This document shows, one piece after another, positions 1-16,197 of a stretch of DNA of 16,197 nt. The notes under the pieces were generated by a model. The model searched no databases and was not told the DNA's origin. It saw nothing but the letters and a program-made list of their open reading frames with translations. A program made the translations under genes and the position numbers. Positions within the stretch are counted from its first letter, which is position 1, and every line of letters starts with the position of its first letter. This DNA is from a virus, in UHGV virus genome UHGV-1963518, one strand, 5' to 3'.

Positions 1-53
1 GCAGCGCATTCGTAATGCGAAGGTCGTAGGTTCGACTCCTATTATCGGCACCA
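1..53 (+). tRNA. thrW: tRNA-Thr (anticodon CGU), 3' portion only; 5' part lies outside the window
   Basis: Sequence GCAGCGCATTCGTAATGCGAAGGTCGTAGGTTCGACTCCTATTATCGGCACCA matches, from memory, the anticodon arm through CCA end of E. coli thrW. T-loop GGTTCGACTCC and terminal CCA at 51-53 are visible. Confidence 0.8.
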
Positions 54-104
54 TTCTAATGTCTCCCCAAGTCTACTCAAGTATTTAAAAACCTCTTATA
101 ATCC
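39..104. repeat. attL: direct repeat covering the tRNA 3' end and flank, repeated at 14704-14768
   Basis: CCTATTATCGGCACCATTCTAATGTCTCCCCAAGTCTACTCAAGTATTTAAAAACCTCTTATAATC recurs at 14704-14768 with two differences (one G missing, T to C). The exact crossover point cannot be fixed from sequence. Confidence 0.65.
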
Positions 105-144
105 GCATGTTAGCGCCCCTTTTAGTCTTTTGACGTCTACTTAA

Positions 145-219
145 GTACCCCAAAATCTACAGTCAATTGGGGGTACTTTTGGGGGTATTTGCTGTTCGGT
201 TTAGTGGAGGTACCCCCAA
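145..219. promoter_or_regulatory. Putative integrase arm-type binding sites (TTGGGGGTAC motif, four copies in both orientations)
   Basis: GTACCCCAAAA at 145-155 (inverted), TTGGGGGTAC at 167-176, TTTTGGGGGTAT at 177-188, GGTACCCCCAA at 209-219 (inverted). The identical 22-mer TTGGGGGTACTTTTGGGGGTAT recurs at the other end of the element (14629-14650). Confidence 0.45.
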
Positions 220-1434
220 GTGAAACTCAATGCCCGTCAAATAGACACTGCCAAGCCAAAAGAGAAGGCTTACAAGTTGGCTGATGGTGGTGGTCTGTAC
301 CTCCTGGTAAAACCTGGTGGAGGAGAATATTGGCGTCTCAAGTATCGTGTAGCTGGTAAAGAGAAGCTGTTAGCACTAGGTGTGTATCCTGAAGTTACCT
401 TGGCTGATGCTCGTGCAAAACGTGAAGAAGCTAAAAGGGGTATCGCTGGGGGTATCGATCCGATGGAAGCGAAACGAGAGGAAAAGATTGCCCGGGAAAC
501 GCAGTTAAACAACACCTTCAAAGATATTGCCCTTGAGTGGCACAGCAGCAAATTAAAAAAATGGTCTGCTGGTTATGCTTCAGACATCCTCGAAGCCTTC
601 AACAAAGATGTGTTCCCTTACATTGGCAAAAAACCAATCGCCGAAATCAAACCACTTGAACTGCTGAATGTGCTGCGGCGCATCGAGGGGCGCGGTGCTA
701 CCGAAAAAGCCAAAAAAGTGAGGCAGCGATGTGGGGAAGTTTTCCGCTATGCAATTGTCACTGGACGTGCTGAGTATAACCCTGCACCGGATCTCACCAG
801 CGCGATGCAAGGACATGAATCTAATCATTATCCTTTCCTCACAGCCAAAGAATTACCTGATTTTTTCAAGGCATTGTCCAGTTACTCAGGAAGTGCATTG
901 GTTGTTATGGCGGCTCGTTTACTGATTATCACCGGTTTGCGGACTGGCGAACTGCGCGGTGCATTATGGGATGAAATCGATCTCAACAAGGCTATCTGGG
1001 AGATACCTGCTTCACGGATGAAAATGCGTCGCCCTCATGTAGTGCCTTTGTCTGAGCAGGCTCTTTCGCTTATTGGGCAGATTAAAGAACTAACTGGCAA
1101 TTATCCGCTTATGTTTCCCGGCCGTAATGATCCAAGGAAAACAATGAGCGAGGCTAGCATAAACCAAGTATTTAAACGCATCGGCTATAACGGAAAGGTT
1201 ACTGGTCATGGCTTCCGGCACACTATGAGCACCATTTTGCATGAGCAGGGCTATAACACCGCGTGGATAGAGACACAGCTTGCGCACGTCGATAAAAACT
1301 CAATTCGTGGCACATACAACCATGCGCAATATCTGGATGGGCGGCGGGAAATGCTTCAGTGGTACGCTGATTATATGGATTCGCTCGAGCATGGCGGAAA
1401 TGTGGTGCATGGTGAGTTCGGAAAATGCGGGTGA
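220..1434 (+). CDS. int: Tyrosine site-specific integrase, P4 type
   Basis: 404 aa with GTG start 8 nt after GGAGG. N-terminus resembles the arm-binding domain of P4-like integrases. C-terminus has the catalytic signature HGFRHT...LAH...RGTY with an upstream RTGELR box. Position next to a tRNA att site fits. Confidence 0.93.
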   Translation: MKLNARQIDTAKPKEKAYKLADGGGLYLLVKPGGGEYWRLKYRVAGKEKLLALGVYPEVTLADARAKREEAKRGIAGGIDPMEAKREEKIARETQLNNTFKDIALEWHSSKLKKWSAGYASDILEAFNKDVFPYIGKKPIAEIKPLELLNVLRRIEGRGATEKAKKVRQRCGEVFRYAIVTGRAEYNPAPDLTSAMQGHESNHYPFLTAKELPDFFKALSSYSGSALVVMAARLLIITGLRTGELRGALWDEIDLNKAIWEIPASRMKMRRPHVVPLSEQALSLIGQIKELTGNYPLMFPGRNDPRKTMSEASINQVFKRIGYNGKVTGHGFRHTMSTILHEQGYNTAWIETQLAHVDKNSIRGTYNHAQYLDGRREMLQWYADYMDSLEHGGNVVHGEFGKCG

Positions 1435-2554: not shown

Positions 2555-2752
2555 ATGTCAAATACGCTTATTCGTTTAACAGAAGTTCAGCGTAGAACTG
2601 GATATAGCAAGGCATGGATTTATCGCCTTATGGGGCAAGGTAAATTTCCTGCATCAGTTAAAATTGGCTCGCGAGCTATTGCTTTCGTTGAGAGTGAAAT
2701 TGACGAGTGGATTAATCAGCGTATTGCGGAATCACGCGGAACAGCTACCTGA
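2555..2752 (+). CDS. alpA: AlpA-family transcriptional regulator / excisionase-like DNA-binding protein
   Basis: 65 aa with RBS GAGG upstream. Sequence LTEVQRRTGYSKAWIYRLMGQGKFPASVKIGSRAIAFVESEIDEWI is typical of the AlpA family. Its position after int matches CP4-57-like and Gram-negative PICI layouts. Confidence 0.85.
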   Translation: MSNTLIRLTEVQRRTGYSKAWIYRLMGQGKFPASVKIGSRAIAFVESEIDEWINQRIAESRGTAT

Positions 2753-3630: not shown

Positions 3631-4347
3631 CGCTCTGACCGTTACAAAAAGAGAAAGCGCCCCGTTGCCGGAGCGCCTTTGTGAACGAATAGCCTACTGC
3701 GCCATATTGCTTACTGTCTACGAGGCAGATTATAGCGTTGTGGTCGCACAGAGTGAAGGCGCTGATCACCGTTACTACAGCACGCCAGAAATGCAGAATA
3801 TTTTGCTGCAAAATGTCGTTGGTCACACTGTCCGGAAAGCAAAAAATTTTGCTGGTGGCGCGACTGATGCGATTTTGTCAGGTCGCCAGGTGCTGATCAA
3901 TCTGATGTCTGATTTCGTTCTGGATAAAACAAAGGCGACCGCAGAGGGCCGCCAGTGGGAAAGCTACATACTTGAACGCATCGCCAACAATGCCAGATTT
4001 GCGGCTGGTGGGCAATGTGTCAGCTTTGCACCAATGACTCTATGTTTAACTGAGGGTCATTATGGTGAATATGCTGGCTTGCTGGTGGGCTATTCCTGCT
4101 CTTTAACATTGCCATGCCGCGATGTTTTCCAGGTATGCGACCCCATTTTTGTGCGCCTGTACTCTTTAAGGAATTTCTCAAGGATAAACGCACAGGGCGC
4201 GAATCTGTTTGACTCATGCTCGTACGCTATCTTTCTGCGCTGTCTTTTCCGTGCCGGTGATGGTGTATTGGTTGATTCTTTGTTGGTCATGGCGCTGCCC
4301 TGTAAAACGATGCACCGTAGTTCCTCACACCACGGCGCTGGTGATGG

Positions 4348-6451: not shown

Positions 6452-8262
6452 AACTGGCACCGAACGTAAAAAAACAGCCACGCGGAATAAAACACAAAGA
6501 CACAGAGGTAATTATTTTCGCGGGTAGTGATGCCTGGGCACACGCGAAACAATGGCAGGAACACGATGCGCGTATGGCTGGAGATAATGAGCCACCTGTT
6601 GTGCTGGCTGATGAACAACTGAAAGAGATCGGAAATCTGCAAATAGTGCCTGATGGGCGCACATCCGCGCGCATATTCAGAGCCGGACAGTTAGATCCTG
6701 TAATGGTTAAGGCAATTGGTCAGAAGCTGGCGGCGGCAAGTATACAGAATGCGAATTATTACCCTGATGGCATGCACAGCCAGAAGTGTGAGAACTGGCG
6801 TGAATACCTTGCCCGTGAGCGTAAAAACATTGATGACGGACTGATTATCCGGTTTCCGGCAAAGAAAAAAACAGAAGACAGCGCGACACCACTGGCACTT
6901 AACCAGATGGGAGCAAGCCAGCGCGGCGAAGTTCTCCTGGCACATTATGGCGGTGAACTGGCAATCAATGCGGATTCTGACACCGTTCACCACTACAACG
7001 GTGTTGTATGGGAGCCGGTACAGGATAAAGAGTTACAGCGGACTATGGCGCAGATTTTTATTGATGCGGAAATCAGCTATTCGCAGAACGCCATCAAATC
7101 GGCGGTCGATACCATGAAGTTAAGTTTGCCCGTAATGGGGAATACAGCCCGTAACCTGATTGGATTCAGTAACGGGGTATTTGATACCAGAACTGGTAAT
7201 TTTCGGGAGCATAACAAAAACGACTGGTTGTTAATTGCCAGTGAATTACCTTTCAGCCCACCAGCAGAGGGGGAAACGCTGGCAACACATGCGCCGAATT
7301 TCTGGAAGTGGTTGCGCCGTTCGGTGGCTGAGAATGACCGCAAGGCAGATCGCGTACTGGCGGCGTTATTCATGGTGCTGGCGAATCGGTACGACTGGCA
7401 GTTATTTCTTGAGGTAACGGGGCCGGGTGGAAGCGGTAAAAGCGTAATGGCGGAGATTTGCACTATGCTGGCGGGTAAGGCCAACACGGTATCGGCAAGC
7501 ATGAAGGCGCTGGAAGATGCCAGGGAACGTGCGTTAGTGGTTGGCTTTTCGCTGATTATCATGCCGGATATGACCCGTTACGCTGGTGATGGTGCAGGGA
7601 TTAAGGCCATTACAGGCGGTGATAAGGTGGCAATCGACCCGAAACATAAAGCCCCCTACTCAACACGCATTCAGGCGGTCGTGCTGGCGGTGAACAATAA
7701 CGCCATGTCATTCAGTGACCGCAGCGGTGGGATATCACGTCGTCGGGTAATATTCAATTTTTCGGAAGTTGTACCGGAGAACGAACGTGACCCTATGCTG
7801 GCTGAAAAAATAGAAGGAGAGCTGGCGGTAGTGATTCGCCACCTGCTTACACGCTTTTCTGACCAGGACGAAGCTAAACGCCTGCTATATGAGCAGCAGA
7901 AATCAGAAGAAGCCCTGGTGATAAAACGCGAGGGCGATTCGCTGGTGGACTTCTGCGGCTATCTCATGTCGTCGGTAATGTGCGATGGCCTGTTAGTGGG
8001 TAATGCTGAAATTATTCCGTTCAGCCCGCGCAGGTATCTCTATCACGCCTATCTGGCGTATATGAGGGCACACGGATTCGGTAAGCCCGTAACACTGACA
8101 CGCTTCGGTAAGGATATGCCAGGGGCAATGGCGGAATACGGCAGGGAGTATATGAAACGGAAAACGAAGCATGGCTTGCGTTCAAACGTGATACTGACAG
8201 AGGATTCAGAAGACTGGATGCCCTCATGTGCATCGGTCACAAATGACGATGGCAAAAATTAA
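6448..8262 (+). CDS. Replication initiator: primase/helicase with P4-alpha / D5-like NTPase domain
   Basis: 604 aa. Walker A GPGGSGKS and downstream acidic box LIIMPDM. Translationally coupled to the upstream ORFs. An iteron cluster lies immediately downstream. Confidence 0.8.
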   Translation: MKLAPNVKKQPRGIKHKDTEVIIFAGSDAWAHAKQWQEHDARMAGDNEPPVVLADEQLKEIGNLQIVPDGRTSARIFRAGQLDPVMVKAIGQKLAAASIQNANYYPDGMHSQKCENWREYLARERKNIDDGLIIRFPAKKKTEDSATPLALNQMGASQRGEVLLAHYGGELAINADSDTVHHYNGVVWEPVQDKELQRTMAQIFIDAEISYSQNAIKSAVDTMKLSLPVMGNTARNLIGFSNGVFDTRTGNFREHNKNDWLLIASELPFSPPAEGETLATHAPNFWKWLRRSVAENDRKADRVLAALFMVLANRYDWQLFLEVTGPGGSGKSVMAEICTMLAGKANTVSASMKALEDARERALVVGFSLIIMPDMTRYAGDGAGIKAITGGDKVAIDPKHKAPYSTRIQAVVLAVNNNAMSFSDRSGGISRRRVIFNFSEVVPENERDPMLAEKIEGELAVVIRHLLTRFSDQDEAKRLLYEQQKSEEALVIKREGDSLVDFCGYLMSSVMCDGLLVGNAEIIPFSPRRYLYHAYLAYMRAHGFGKPVTLTRFGKDMPGAMAEYGREYMKRKTKHGLRSNVILTEDSEDWMPSCASVTNDDGKN

Positions 8263-8276
8263 ACTTATGGAATAAC

Positions 8277-15222: not shown

Positions 15223-15657
15223 TCACAATAATAGTGTATATAATTATACATTGTATGCTTGGTAATCATATAATGATAAAAGCTTCCGATAATCAGTATG
15301 AGATTTGTCCTTAAACTCCTGGACATGCTTTTCTAAATCTTCCAATGGTATATGTCCATTTATACAAATAAAATTCTAGTGATAAATACCTTCAGGTATG
15401 ATTAGACAACATCTTTATTCGATGGGGGTTAATCTATATTTGATATCTTTCTTTTAAATAACAACGCCATTAAAAACGCTTTGTTTAATGACGTTTTTTT
15501 ATTGTTTCCTATATAAAGCCTAACCAGCATAAACATTGGTGGCTCTTATGCTCATTGTAATTAAATGAGAGTGTGATTAATGTCTTTATATATTCTGGTA
15601 GTTATTCTCTCCAGAAGAATACATTGTAAGAAGATGACTGTTAGTATGTTTTAACAT

Positions 15658-16012
15658 CAATTAACATTAAGGTTTGATAATAATTTTTTGTTGGCGAGTT
15701 CAAATGTTTTCATTTCATCATCTGATAGCCCGCTCCAGATTTTCTTTAGCATTACATTTTGAGTGTTTATTAGTTTTTGAGCAAGTGTAACTCCGTCAGG
15801 GGTTAAGCAAATACTTTTGCTTCGACGATCGTTTTTATTATTAATTCTTTTGGCAATATTCTTTTTTCTAATTTGTCTATGATGTGTGTGATGTTTGTTT
15901 TGGAGAATTGTAACTCCTTGTAAATATCAGAAGGGGACTGACAATAATCATCAGACATATATAATGAAACTAACACCATAAATGTTGAAGTGTTTATTCT
16001 ATACTCGCTCAA
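15658..16012 (-). pseudogene. MarR-family winged-helix regulator interrupted by a single-base frameshift in a homopolymer
   Basis: ORF 15803-16012 encodes ...SPSDIYKELQFSKTNITHIIDKLEKR. The adjacent frame continues INNKNDRRSKSICLTPDGVTLAQKLINTQNVMLKKIWSGLSDDEMKTFELANKKLL to a stop at 15658-15660. The two frames join across the T6 run at 15862-15867. Confidence 0.55.
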
Positions 16013-16144
16013 TTCATTTTCTATAATACTCTGGATTTTGTCATTTACTCTAATATATAAGTGTATTAACAGACTCTCCTGAGCCGGGTATGCCGGATTT
16101 TTGATTTTTTTGTGGTTTGTTATAGTTTTTAATAAATCTATATT

Positions 16145-16197
16145 TGAACCGCCCCGGGAATCCTGGAGACTAAACTTCCTGAGAAAGAGGTAAACAG
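16145..16197 (+). mobile_element. Left terminal inverted repeat and leader of an IS3-family element, IS629/IS1203-like (truncated by window end)
   Basis: TGAACCGCCCCGGGAATCCTGGAGACTAAACTTCCTGAGAAAGAGGTAAACAG matches my memory of the IS629/IS1203 left end, including the RBS just before the orfA start. The rest lies outside the window. Confidence 0.6.

What the first reader, a model, noticed from the sequence alone, without database searches (positions are those of the whole stretch)
145..219. TTGGGGGTAC arm-type motif on both arms of attP
The motif occurs four times (two orientations) between attL and the int start, and the identical tandem 22-mer recurs at 14629-14650 just inside attR. In the circular form these flank the core on both sides, as expected for arm-type sites of a tyrosine integrase with an N-terminal arm-binding domain. 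The last copy overlaps the int RBS/start, which could provide autoregulation.
Basis: partly seen in the sequence, partly recalled or inferred. Interest (0 to 1): 0.45.

Follow-up and report, generated by a model that had tools for sequence, protein, structure and literature searches.

The report
Integrase arm-binding sites of a thrW island
The repeated TGGGGGTA motif is very probably the set of accessory ("arm") binding sites that a P4-type integrase uses to insert and excise a 14.7-kb satellite-like island at the E. coli thrW tRNA gene. The layout is known from phage P4, so this case is ordinary, though well supported.

Summary
TTGGGGGTAC (up to 1 mismatch) occurs 9 times in the window against 0.75 expected. 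An exact 23-mer, ATTGGGGGTACTTTTGGGGGTAT, lies at 166-188 and at 14630-14652.

Five copies form a stereotyped set:
- a 12-bp-spaced tandem pair about 80 bp upstream of the attR core;
- a second pair 133 bp downstream of the attL core;
- one inverted copy between the Shine-Dalgarno sequence and the GTG start of int.

The integrase carries Pfam Arm-DNA-bind_3. Phage P4's GenBank record annotates the same layout as "attP arm sequence repeat", with the motif TGGGGGCAT.

The motif is kept on both arms in related thrW islands with unrelated cargo. It switches to GGGGGCA on both arms in islands with a roughly 75%-identical integrase. Across about 40 homologues, motif class tracks integrase residue 50 without exception: R with GCA, K with GCY, L/T/M/V with GTA.

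The copy at 145-154 is not conserved and is probably not a site. Autoregulation is inferred only by analogy with P4, KplE1 and ICEMlSymR7A. The int promoter was not located.

Verdict: interpretation supported. This is a new member of a known kind, of low-to-moderate interest.

The parts
1..55 (+). 3' part of the tRNA-Thr gene thrW. The window starts inside the gene. attL core CTCCTATTATCGGCACCA at 36-53.
   Evidence: Near-identical E. coli records annotate tRNA-Thr here, after proA. ARAGORN finds nothing because the gene is cut by the window start. Core located.
97..102 (+). Perfect -10-like hexamer TATAAT, with no good -35. Candidate int promoter element.
   Evidence: Read from the sequence. 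A TATAAT/TATACT/TATATT-like hexamer sits at the same place in diverged arms. It is not called by the strict sigma-70 scan. Function is inferred only.
125..160 (+). Phased roughly 10-bp series of GTCTTT / GTCTAC / (GTACCC) / ATCTAC elements just upstream of the proximal pair. Candidate binding region for the AlpA-like recombination directionality factor.
   Evidence: Alignment of proximal arms shows a phased TCTAC- or TCAAC-type series in this region across lineages. By analogy, RdfS binds 40 bp directly upstream of arm site P3 in ICEMlSymR7A and TorI sites lie in KplE1 attL. Inference, not tested.
145..154 (-). Doubtful as an arm site.
   Evidence: It has one mismatch. In close relatives it reads gtactccaaa or gtccctcaaa, and it is absent in the GCA-type lineages. 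It occupies slot 3 of the phased TCTAC series.
167..176 (+). Proximal arm-type site P'1 (TTGGGGGTAC).
   Evidence: Exact match. The core is invariant in all related arms. It lies 133 bp from the start of the attL core, against 135 bp in P4.
179..188 (+). Proximal arm-type site P'2 (TTGGGGGTAT), 12 bp after P'1.
   Evidence: The 12-bp spacing occurs in 39 of 42 family members.
210..219 (-). Inverted arm-type site P'3 (GTACCCCCAA on the + strand), between the SD GGAGG (206-210) and the GTG start.
   Evidence: Exact match. The inverted core ends 1-4 nt before the start codon in 33 of the 38 homologues that have an inverted copy. It sits in the same position as the P4 repeat 3915-3926 that overlaps the int ATG.
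220..1434 (+). int: P4-family tyrosine integrase, 404 aa. Arm-binding N-domain is about residues 1-90.
   Evidence: PF13356 Arm-DNA-bind_3 (2.4e-27), PF22022 and PF00589. PDB relatives of the N-domain are 3JU0 and 3JTZ.
2555..2752 (+). AlpA/Vis-like small HTH protein, the probable excisionase (RDF).
   Evidence: PHROG families annotated 'excisionase and transcriptional regulator', E about 1.5e-11. It shows 22/57 identity to P4 Vis.
14631..14640 (+). Distal arm-type site D1 (TTGGGGGTAC).
   Evidence: Similarity between islands with different cargo begins at this motif.
14643..14652 (+). Distal arm-type site D2 (TTGGGGGTAT), 12 bp after D1. The pair starts 80 bp before the attR core.
   Evidence: In P4 the pair starts 74 bp before the core.
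14685..14697 (+). IHF-like site TATCAATGTATTT, a 12/13 match to WATCAANNNNTTR, between the distal pair and the core.
   Evidence: ATCAA lies at offset +51 to +53 from the pair in 29 of 89 distinct distal arms. The full consensus lies at +50/51 in 12 of them; over the whole arm 16 carry it, against 0.49 in shuffles. The strict consensus is absent from the window's arms. Inference.
14713..14729 (+). attR core TTCCTATTATCG-CACCA: a thrW 3' fragment with one G missing.
   Evidence: The same G-less fragment occurs at attR in all related loci.
14730..15222 (+). Remnant of a second, tandem element. It has a P'-arm homologue with the tandem pair collapsed to one mutated unit (TTGAGGGGAT, 14843-14852), an inverted copy at 14874-14883 and a truncated int' (14884-15222).
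   Evidence: (families D1/D2; the spacing differs by exactly 12 bp).

Best explanation
The window holds the 3' end of thrW and a 14.7-kb P4-like/PICI-like island. The island encodes int, an alpA-like excisionase, antA, a D5-type primase, ProQ/FinO and PerC, and is bounded by attL (core 36-53) and attR (core 14713-14729).

Five TGGGGGTAY copies are the arm-type sites of the island's integrase. They are a co-oriented tandem pair on the int-distal arm (14631-14652), a co-oriented tandem pair on the int-proximal arm (167-188), and one inverted copy abutting the int start (210-219).

In the excised circle the two pairs would lie about 80 bp to one side of the crossover region and about 133 bp to the other. 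Inferred mechanism, on the lambda/P4 model: the N-terminal Arm-DNA-bind_3 domains of an integrase tetramer bind these sites while the catalytic domains bind the core. An IHF-type bend between the distal pair and the core, and the AlpA-like RDF bound just upstream of the proximal pair, would shape the integrative or the excisive complex.

Because P'2 and P'3 bracket the ribosome-binding region of int, bound integrase probably also lowers its own expression. That last step is the least certain.

Shown here: presence, significance, conservation, geometry, homology of the layout to P4, and covariation with the integrase N-domain. Inferred: binding, stoichiometry, IHF and RDF roles, autoregulation.
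For: 1. Statistics: 9 matches against 0.75 expected, plus an exact 23-mer on both arms.
2. The integrase has PF13356 Arm-DNA-bind_3 plus the central and catalytic domains. The N-domain matches PDB 3JU0 and 3JTZ.
3. In five related thrW islands (integrase 96-99% identical at protein level, 91-99% at DNA level; different cargo) both pairs and the inverted copy are conserved. The sequence upstream of the distal pair is unrelated between islands. BLAST similarity of distal arms starts at the motif.
4. In islands whose integrase is about 75% identical, all five positions read GGGGGCA instead. A natural hybrid (L072) has a GCA-lineage arm but GTA motifs together with GTA-type N-domain strands.
5. 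The phage P4 record annotates six 'attP arm sequence repeat' features. Five have the same layout: distal pair 74 bp before the core, proximal pair 135 bp after it, inverted copy over the int ATG. The sixth lies inside int. The P4 motif is TGGGGGCAT.
6. Among 80 homologues from other species the architecture is stereotyped. Tandem spacing is 12 bp in 39 of 42. The first copy lies 48-51 nt before the start codon in 32 of 42. The inverted core ends 1-4 nt before the start in 33 of the 38 that have one.
7. In the six comparison elements whose two ends are both held, a single distal pair lies 73-81 bp before a repeat of the core, and the other core copy lies 130-142 bp before the proximal pair. This holds for five different cores.
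8. Motif class against integrase residue 50, with no exception: GGGGCA with R (14/14), GGGGCY with K (8/8), GGGGTA with L/T/M/V (20/20). In the 39 with a full-length integrase this needs about 14 independent changes on a tree built from the catalytic domain alone. No AlpA column predicts the class as well (best MI/H 0.73 against 1.0).
9. Experimental precedent in relatives. ICEMlSymR7A attP has five IntS arm-type motifs, TGKTGGTATC, all needed for efficient integration, and IntS represses PintS (PMC11963761). P4 Int and KplE1 IntS autoregulate by binding attL/promoter DNA (PMC2951348). HE-PICIs carry a doubled 12-bp-period motif at -81 and +132 from the attP centre (PMC10111431).
10. In the dead tandem remnant the pair has collapsed by exactly one 12-bp unit and the surviving unit carries 2 substitutions, while the adjacent 300 nt are 99% identical.
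Against: - There is no binding or recombination data for this integrase.
- The motif cores were used to define the classes, so invariance of the core within a class is partly by construction. The flanking T, G and Y are independent observations.
- Sequences are related, so counts overstate independence, although about 14 switches are inferred.
- No consensus sigma-70 promoter was found on the int strand of the arm. How bound Int would repress is therefore unclear.
- The window's IHF-like site misses the consensus by one base.
- The single-sequence AlphaFold model of the N-domain is poor (pLDDT 52). Placing residue 50 in a DNA-contacting strand is therefore only suggestive.
- No excised circular form (attP junction) was observed.
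Confidence: 0.85

Rival explanations
1. The repeats are bound by another element-encoded protein rather than by the integrase. The obvious candidate is the AlpA/Vis-like excisionase. The HE-PICI paper left this possibility open for its own doubled motif.
For: An AlpA-like gene is present (2555-2752). AlpA homologues accompany many family members (23 of 42 loci). PMC10111431 lists AlpA or an unknown protein as alternatives.
Against: Motif class is predicted perfectly by Int residue 50 but by no AlpA column (best MI/H 0.73, with 8 states in 23 sequences). RDF sites characterised in relatives lie on one arm, next to the arm-type sites and not on top of them. A separate phased TCTAC series at 125-160 is a better candidate for RDF binding. 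In 19 of 42 loci no AlpA homologue was found within 7 kb downstream of int, yet the motifs are there.
Confidence: 0.06
2. The proximal copies matter mainly as RNA. A tandem copy pairs with the inverted copy in the int mRNA leader, forming a hairpin that buries the SD and start codon and controls translation. The DNA-level repetition would be secondary.
For: The predicted hairpin pairs about 178-194 with about 202-220 and covers most of the SD and the first base of the GTG (-29 kcal/mol). P4 folds the same way. Direct and inverted copies change together across lineages, which is also what a conserved helix would show. P4 Vis is reported to act on int mRNA.
Against: The energies are not significant against shuffles (z = -1.5 and -1.9). 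The model cannot explain the distal pair 14.4 kb away, which changes in step. It also cannot explain the covariation with an integrase residue. Whether the transcript even includes the tandem pair is unknown, because the transcription start is not mapped. At best this is an extra layer on top of the DNA sites.
Confidence: 0.05
3. The repeats are non-functional by-products of tandem integration, duplication or gene conversion between stacked elements at thrW.
For: The locus does carry stacked elements, including a remnant at 14730-15222, and tandem arrays occur in other genomes. The two 23-mers are identical in this window.
Against: In other islands the two pairs differ in spacer and flanks but keep the TGGGGGTAY cores. 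The layout is conserved from Enterobacterales to Planctomycetota-derived contigs with fixed geometry. In the one truly dead copy the pair has decayed.
Confidence: 0.02

Closest known systems
Phage P4 attP arm repeats and P4 Int (GenBank NC_001609 features 'attP arm sequence repeat'; original description, from memory, Pierson & Kahn 1987)
   Same: - The integrase family is the same (Arm-DNA-bind_3 N-domain; 42% identity to the window's Int).
- The core lies at the 3' end of a tRNA gene.
- The distal tandem pair has 12-bp period and starts 74 bp before the core (80 bp in the window).
- The proximal pair starts 135 bp after the core start (133 bp in the window).
- An inverted copy is followed by CAA(A) and then the int start codon.
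- An IHF-like ATCA(A/T) element lies between the distal pair and the core.
   Different: - The motif is TGGGGGCAT in P4 and TGGGGGTAY here.
- Residue 50 of Int is R in P4 and L here.
- P4 integrates at a different core (annotated core 4078-4097; a leucine tRNA gene, from memory), not at thrW.
- P4 has a sixth annotated repeat inside int, which has no counterpart here.
- P4 Int binding and autoregulation are published (as cited). Nothing is published, as far as I could find, for this island.
ICEMlSymR7A IntS arm-type sites P1-P5 (Verdonk et al. 2019, as cited in PMC11963761)
   Same: - The integrase is described as P4-family (from memory).
- There are five arm-type motifs within a roughly 283-bp attP.
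- intS lies immediately downstream of attL.
- The RDF binds just upstream of an arm site next to intS.
- IntS represses its own promoter.
   Different: - The motif is TGKTGGTATC. In my sample a TGGTA-type motif goes with KQK instead of KEK at residues 47-49 in 7 of the 12 loci so classed.
- The host element is a 500-kb conjugative element, not a satellite-like island.
- The RDF is RdfS, not AlpA.
- Requirement for all five sites was shown experimentally there and is only inferred here.
Doubled attP motif of helper-embedded PICIs (PMC10111431)
   Same: The motif is a tandem doublet with a 12-bp period. It is present twice and co-oriented, 81 +/- 2 bp upstream and 132 +/- 2 bp downstream of the attP centre. 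This is essentially the geometry found here. The elements are PICI-type with AlpA.
   Different: The motif there is TGTATTGC. The targets are prophage late genes. The authors left the binding protein open (Int arm domains, AlpA or unknown). They did not report an inverted copy at the int start.
KplE1 (CPS-53) IntS/TorI attL and the 'attL overlaps the int promoter' paradigm (PMC2951348)
   Same: The tRNA gene and int point the same way, with int immediately downstream. Arm-type sites lie between the core and int. Negative autoregulation was predicted for this whole class and shown for several E. coli integrases.
   Different: The KplE1 arm sites have a different consensus (a conserved TAAA) and arrangement (P'1-P'4), with P'1 over the -10 box. 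Here no promoter could be placed with confidence.
Lambda Int arm-type sites (P1, P2, P'1-P'3)
   Same: The integrase is heterobivalent. There are five arm sites split 2 + 3 across the two arms, with IHF bends and an excisionase setting directionality. This is established knowledge, restated.
   Different: The arm-binding domains belong to different Pfam families (here PF13356). The sequences and spacings are unrelated. Lambda int is not transcribed out of the attL arm.

Membership tests
Arm-type sites of a heterobivalent tyrosine integrase | The cognate integrase has a separate N-terminal arm-DNA-binding domain in addition to core-binding and catalytic domains | tested here: met
   PF13356 (residues 3-88, E = 2.4e-27), PF22022 (100-194) and PF00589 (206-371). 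N-domain relatives are solved as 3JU0 and 3JTZ.
Arm-type sites of a heterobivalent tyrosine integrase | Repeated motif, unrelated to the core sequence, present on both arms of attP (that is, inside attL and inside attR of the integrated element) | tested here: met
   Sites at 167-188 and 210-219 inside attL, and at 14631-14652 inside attR. The motif is unrelated to the core TCCTATTATCGGCACCA.
Arm-type sites of a heterobivalent tyrosine integrase | Sites conserved in related elements and co-varying with the integrase | tested here: met
   The sites are conserved in islands whose Int is 96-99% identical. They switch to GGGGGCA on both arms in islands whose Int is about 75% identical. The association with Int residue 50 is perfect across 39-42 homologues, with about 14 switches.
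Arm-type sites of a heterobivalent tyrosine integrase | The N-domain physically binds the motif, and the sites are required for recombination | not testable with these tools
   This needs EMSA or footprinting and attP mutagenesis. Such requirement is reported only for relatives: P4 as cited, ICEMlSymR7A.
P4-family attP layout | Core at the 3' end of a tRNA gene, with int immediately downstream and co-oriented | tested here: met
   The thrW 3' end is at 1-55 and int at 220-1434 on the same strand.
P4-family attP layout | Two co-oriented tandem doublets of 12-bp period, about 75-80 bp before and about 130-135 bp after the core start, plus an inverted copy at the int start codon | tested here: met
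   Window: 80 and 133 bp. P4: 74 and 135 bp. Family-wide: 12-bp spacing in 39 of 42, and the inverted core 1-4 nt before the start in 33 of 38.
P4-family attP layout | Host-factor (IHF) site between the distal pair and the core | tested here: inconclusive
   The window has a 12/13 match at 14685-14697, at the offset where relatives carry ATCAA (29 of 89 arms) or the full consensus (12 of 89; 16 of 89 anywhere in the arm against 0.49 in shuffles). No binding data.
Autoregulated integrase genes whose promoter overlaps attL (KplE1 / P4 paradigm) | Same-direction tRNA-int arrangement, with arm sites between the core and int | tested here: met
Autoregulated integrase genes whose promoter overlaps attL (KplE1 / P4 paradigm) | Int binding sites overlap the -35/-10 or the transcription start of int | tested here: inconclusive
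   The scan calls no + strand sigma-70 promoter in 1-400. A conserved TATAAT at 97-102 lies upstream of the sites. P'3 overlaps the SD-start spacer. The transcription start is not known.
Autoregulated integrase genes whose promoter overlaps attL (KplE1 / P4 paradigm) | Int supplied in trans lowers int expression | not testable with these tools
   This needs a reporter fusion. It has been shown for IntS of KplE1, IntC, IntF, IntL, P4 Int and IntS of ICEMlSymR7A.

The most novel reading that the evidence does not exclude
The Arm-DNA-bind_3 domain may have a simple, readable recognition rule. The residue that follows the conserved KEK, at the start of the third predicted strand (residue 50 here), would read positions 7-8 of the TGGGGGNN site. 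Arg would go with CA, Lys with CY, and Leu/Thr/Met/Val with TA. A change of E48 to Q may go with TGGTA-type sites: 7 of the 12 loci of that class carry Q48.

The N-domain and its arm sites would then be exchanged as one module, independently of the catalytic domain and its core (tRNA) specificity. About 14 switches on the catalytic-domain tree suggest this.

If true, arm specificity of thousands of P4-type integrases could be predicted from sequence. It could also be reprogrammed by a single substitution together with matching changes in the arm sites.
Probability: 0.45. Interest if true: 0.5.

Novelty: new member of a known kind. Interest (0 to 1): 0.3.

Why it matters
For this window, the result fixes the functional boundaries of the island. 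A minimal attP would be about 270 bp, combining 14631-14729 with 36-219. The result also says which bases to keep when building an integration vector for thrW, or to mutate in order to immobilise the island. It also separates the live element from the dead remnant that follows it.

More generally, one stereotyped five-site layout runs through P4, PICI-like satellites, genomic islands and ICEs. The arm motif can be read off next to the int start codon. This gives a cheap way to find the far end (attR) of such islands in genomes.

The residue-50 correlation is a directly testable hypothesis about how this widespread domain reads DNA. No protein-DNA structure of the domain turned up in the PDB sequence search.

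Tried and rejected
- ARAGORN on the window found no tRNA, because thrW is cut by the window start. The gene was identified through annotated E. coli records instead.
- The strict sigma-70 scan found no + strand promoter in 1-400. The only hit is on the - strand at 80-53. I therefore do not name an int promoter.
- The strict IHF consensus WATCAANNNNTTR has no match in either arm of the window. Only a one-mismatch site lies at the position conserved in relatives.
- I looked in IMG/VR for an excised circular form with both pairs around one core. No stretch held two matches around a single core other than chromosomal tandem arrays, so there is no direct evidence of attP.
- The primary P4 papers (Piazzolla 2006; Lindqvist 1993 review) are not held. 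A phrase search for the Pierson & Kahn title combined with 'arm-type' found nothing. Full-text searches for the motif strings returned only noise. 'DUF4102' appeared in none of the 15 papers listed.
- The single-sequence AlphaFold model of residues 1-110 was too poor to use (pLDDT 52).
- The RNA hairpin idea was rejected as the main explanation: z-scores are not significant and it cannot explain the distal arm.
- AlpA as the reader of the motif was rejected as the main explanation on covariation grounds. Pairwise AlpA identities alone did not discriminate.
- The match at 13609-13618 was considered and dismissed as the roughly one chance hit expected.
- PADLOC gave no defence-system hit for the cargo ORFs, apart from one weak hit to a Mad1 model for 10944-11480.
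Full report
**What is in the window**

The window begins inside the tRNA-Thr gene thrW. Near-identical E. coli chromosomes annotate tRNA-Thr after proA at this position. ARAGORN misses it because the gene is cut by the window start.

From 220 to 1434 runs a 404-aa tyrosine integrase with three Pfam domains: Arm-DNA-bind_3 (PF13356, E = 2.4e-27), the phage-integrase central domain and the catalytic domain. Downstream lie:
- an AlpA/Vis-like small HTH protein (2555-2752; PHROG 'excisionase and transcriptional regulator');
- an AntA-type protein, a D5-type primase and ProQ/FinO;
- a PerC-like protein (annotated in relatives; PHROG 'transcriptional activator' families for 10019-10306).

This is the gene set of a P4-like or PICI-like satellite island.

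The 3' end of thrW, CTCCTATTATCGGCACCA (36-53), recurs as TTCCTATTATCG-CACCA at 14713-14729. These are the attL and attR cores of a 14.7-kb element.

What follows attR is not host DNA. It is the remnant of a second, related element: a P'-arm homologue and an int' truncated after 112 codons (14884-15222). The contig is IMG/VR UViG 3300015157_000114.

**The observation**

TTGGGGGTAC with up to one mismatch occurs 9 times, against 0.75 expected (none of 200 shuffles reaches 9). The exact 23-mer ATTGGGGGTACTTTTGGGGGTAT lies at 166-188 and 14630-14652.

Within the live element there are six copies:
- 145-154 (-);
- 167-176 and 179-188 (+, 12 bp apart);
- 210-219 (-, between the SD GGAGG and the GTG start);
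- 14631-14640 and 14643-14652 (+, 12 bp apart).

The match at 13609 lies inside a cargo ORF and is the roughly one chance hit expected.

**Comparative test in E. coli**

I fetched thrW islands from other E. coli genomes.

In five islands whose integrase is 96-99% identical at the protein level (91-99% at the DNA level) but whose cargo differs, both tandem pairs and the inverted copy are conserved. The cargo includes a SEFIR protein, an AAA ATPase with DUF4435, and P22-type ejection genes. The DNA just upstream of the distal pair is unrelated from island to island. BLAST similarity of distal arms across 793 E. coli records typically starts at the motif (query positions 240, 253 and 266 correspond to window 14619, 14632 and 14645).

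Between the pairs the spacer and flanks vary, while T-G-GGGGTA-Y is kept. In 49 distinct distal arms the flanking T is present in 46, the G in 47, and the Y in 47 at both copies.

The copy at 145-154 behaves differently. It reads gtactccaaa or gtccctcaaa in close relatives, and it is the only copy that is polymorphic among near-identical arms.

In islands whose integrase is about 75% identical (TUM1887, LAM_HS; AR_0114 for the distal arm only), the same positions carry GGGGGCA instead:
- proximal pair: ttgggggcatcggtgggggcat;
- inverted copy over the start: gagATGCCCCCAAATG;
- distal pair: gtgggggcattattgggggcat.

One natural hybrid (L072) has a proximal arm of the GCA lineage but GTA motifs, and its N-domain strands are of the GTA type.

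It was tested and not met.

**Identity with the P4 layout**

The GenBank record of phage P4 annotates six 'attP arm sequence repeat' features. On the int strand they are:
- a tandem pair, TGGGGGCACAAAAGGGGGCAT, starting 74 bp before the 20-bp core;
- a tandem pair, TTGGGGGCATAATTGGGGGCAT, 135 bp after the core start;
- an inverted copy, GTGCCCCCAAATG, running into the int ATG;
- one more copy inside int.

The window has 80 bp, 133 bp and GTACCCCCAAGTG. The window's sites are therefore positional homologues of the P4 arm repeats, with T in place of C at one position. The two integrases are 42% identical.

**The family at large**

The exact doublet TGGGGGTAYYTTTGGGGGTAT occurs in 78 IMG/VR stretches. 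About 30 of them lie not at thrW but upstream of other tRNA-like ends, some in GC-rich contexts.

A scan of one genome per species with an alignment of eight integrases returned 80 loci (24-77% identity). The architecture is stereotyped:
- tandem spacing is 12 bp in 39 of 42;
- the first copy lies 48-51 nt before the start codon in 32 of 42;
- the inverted core ends 1-4 nt before the start in 33 of the 38 that have an inverted copy.

In the six comparison elements for which both ends are held, exactly one distal pair is found. It lies 73-81 bp before a direct repeat whose other copy lies 130-142 bp before the proximal pair. This holds for five different cores.

A paper on helper-embedded PICIs independently reports a doubled 12-bp-period motif (TGTATTGC) at -81 +/- 2 and +132 +/- 2 from the attP centre. 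Its authors left open whether Int arm domains or AlpA bind it (PMC10111431).

**Who reads the motif**

The motif differs between lineages: GGGGGTA, GGGGGCA, GGGGGCY, TGGTA, GTATA and others.

Within the GGGGG-NN group the class is predicted without exception by one integrase residue. This is the residue after the conserved KEK, residue 50 in the window's numbering:
- R with GCA (14/14);
- K with GCY (8/8);
- L/T/M/V with GTA (20/20).

The only apparent exception (L118) is an N-truncated int whose upstream DNA is not contiguous with it.

Among the 39 with a full-length integrase, both characters need about 14 changes on a neighbour-joining tree built from the catalytic part alone. So this is not one inherited split.

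In the 23 loci with an AlpA homologue nearby, no AlpA column does as well (best normalised mutual information 0.73 against 1.0).

The chemistry is sensible, as an inference: Arg or Lys facing the G opposite C7, and an aliphatic side chain facing the thymine methyl.

The N-domain has solved relatives without DNA (3JU0, 3JTZ/3RMP). My single-sequence model is poor (pLDDT 52) but places residue 50 in a strand spanning 47-55.

Together this makes the integrase N-domain the most likely reader of the motif. No binding was measured.

**Other parts of the arms**

Between the distal pair and the core, ATCAA lies at offset +51 to +53 in 29 of 89 distinct distal arms. The full IHF consensus lies at +50/51 in 12 of them; over the whole arm 16 carry it, against 0.49 in shuffles. 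The window has a one-mismatch version at 14685-14697.

Just upstream of the proximal pair there is a phased, roughly 10-bp series of TCTAC-type elements. It is TCAAC-type in other lineages. By analogy with RdfS, which binds 40 bp directly upstream of arm site P3 in ICEMlSymR7A, and with TorI in KplE1, this is where I would expect the AlpA-like excisionase to bind.

That placement, together with its lack of conservation, is why I do not count it as an arm site. A weak auxiliary role cannot be excluded, because Citrobacter and Buttiauxella relatives have an extra inverted copy in roughly that place.

**Autoregulation**

The idea is reasonable but unproven here. Three lines of precedent apply:
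- Panis et al. showed that integrase genes transcribed out of attL are repressed by their own product, and they cite the same for P4 Int through direct DNA binding.
- IntS of ICEMlSymR7A lowers PintS by about 25%. In that element five arm-type motifs (TGKTGGTATC) are all needed for efficient integration.
- In the window, P'3 fills the SD-start spacer and P'2 lies 32 nt before the start.

However, the consensus scan finds no + strand promoter. The only strong element is a conserved TATAAT at 97-102, upstream of the sites.

A hairpin between a tandem copy and the inverted copy would bury the SD and start. Its energy is not significant against shuffles, and it cannot explain the distal pair.

**The remnant as a natural control**

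In the dead second element the tandem pair has lost exactly one 12-bp unit. The survivor reads TTGAGGGGAT, with two substitutions, while the following 300 nt are 99% identical to the live copy. This is a single event and therefore weak evidence, but it points the expected way.

**Verdict**

Five of the six copies are, with about 85% confidence, the arm-type sites of a P4-family integrase. They are arranged as in P4 attP. This is a new member of a known kind.

The part that goes beyond the literature I could reach is the family-wide link between one N-domain residue and the variable positions of the site. It is a testable hypothesis rather than a result.

Noticed in passing
window 14730-15222 (and 15223-16197): A second, dead element sits in tandem after attR. 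It has a P'-arm homologue (90% identical), a tandem pair collapsed to one mutated unit (14843-14852) and an int' truncated after 112 codons. An AT-rich stretch follows. At 16140-16197 there is what looks, from memory, like the left end of an IS3-family insertion sequence (tgaaccgccccgggaatcctggagactaaac...). Many E. coli genomes carry this remnant directly at thrW (hits H6-H8).
   Followed up: partly
window 14713-14729; also L012, L027, L074: The thrW fragment at attR lacks one G (ATCG-CACCA against ATCGGCACCA). Other contigs show different small deletions at the same spot (tcctattatcccattt, tcctattatcgcccatt, tcctattatctctttt). PMC10111431 describes such 'damage' of the tRNA fragment at attR as typical of PICIs at Thr, Pro and other tRNA genes.
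   Followed up: partly
window 71-76 and 125-160; alignment: There is a phased series, of about 10-bp period, of GTCTAC-like elements between the core and the proximal pair. In other integrase lineages it is replaced by TCAAC-like elements. These are candidate excisionase (AlpA) sites. Whether the variant covaries with AlpA was not tested.
   Followed up: partly
L088-L167 (genome contigs) and IMG/VR loci L009-L086: The arm motif class tracks integrase residue 50 (R, K or aliphatic) with about 14 switches on the catalytic-domain tree. This suggests that the N-domain plus arm sites move as a module relative to core specificity. The exact GGGGGTA doublet occurs upstream of several different tRNA-like cores, and the GGGGTA motif also lies next to int homologues in Planctomycetota, Rickettsiales and Pseudomonas contigs.
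   Followed up: partly
window 12339-13937: This is a 532-aa ORF with no Pfam or PADLOC hit (PHROG 14259, unknown function). It occupies the slot next to the distal arm where related islands carry a SEFIR-domain protein, or an AAA ATPase plus a DUF4435 protein. From memory, this is the variable anti-phage 'hotspot' of P4-like satellites, so the ORF may be an uncharacterised defence gene.
   Followed up: partly
window 8261-8474: A dense cluster of inverted and direct repeats built on GGGTGAACAG / CTGTTCACC lies immediately after the primase gene (families I1, I2, I13 and D13). It looks like the island's replication origin.
   Followed up: no
window 11504-11688: An exact 18-mer, CGCGAAAAAGTGTCAACC, is repeated 136 bp apart (11535 and 11671), with inverted partners GCCAGGTTGACACTTT (I15, I22). 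It looks like operator-type sites around a divergent regulatory region.
   Followed up: no
window 10944-11480: This 178-aa ORF has an N-terminal HTH that weakly matches small-terminase and Cox/excisionase PHROGs and HTH_17. It may be a packaging-redirection or regulatory protein of the satellite.
   Followed up: no
L003 4175-4306, L005 3314-4591, L008 2579-2713: In several E. coli genomes another prophage (P22-like or other) lies upstream of the island, between it and thrW. The locus is a stacking site for unrelated integrases that use the same tRNA end.
   Followed up: no
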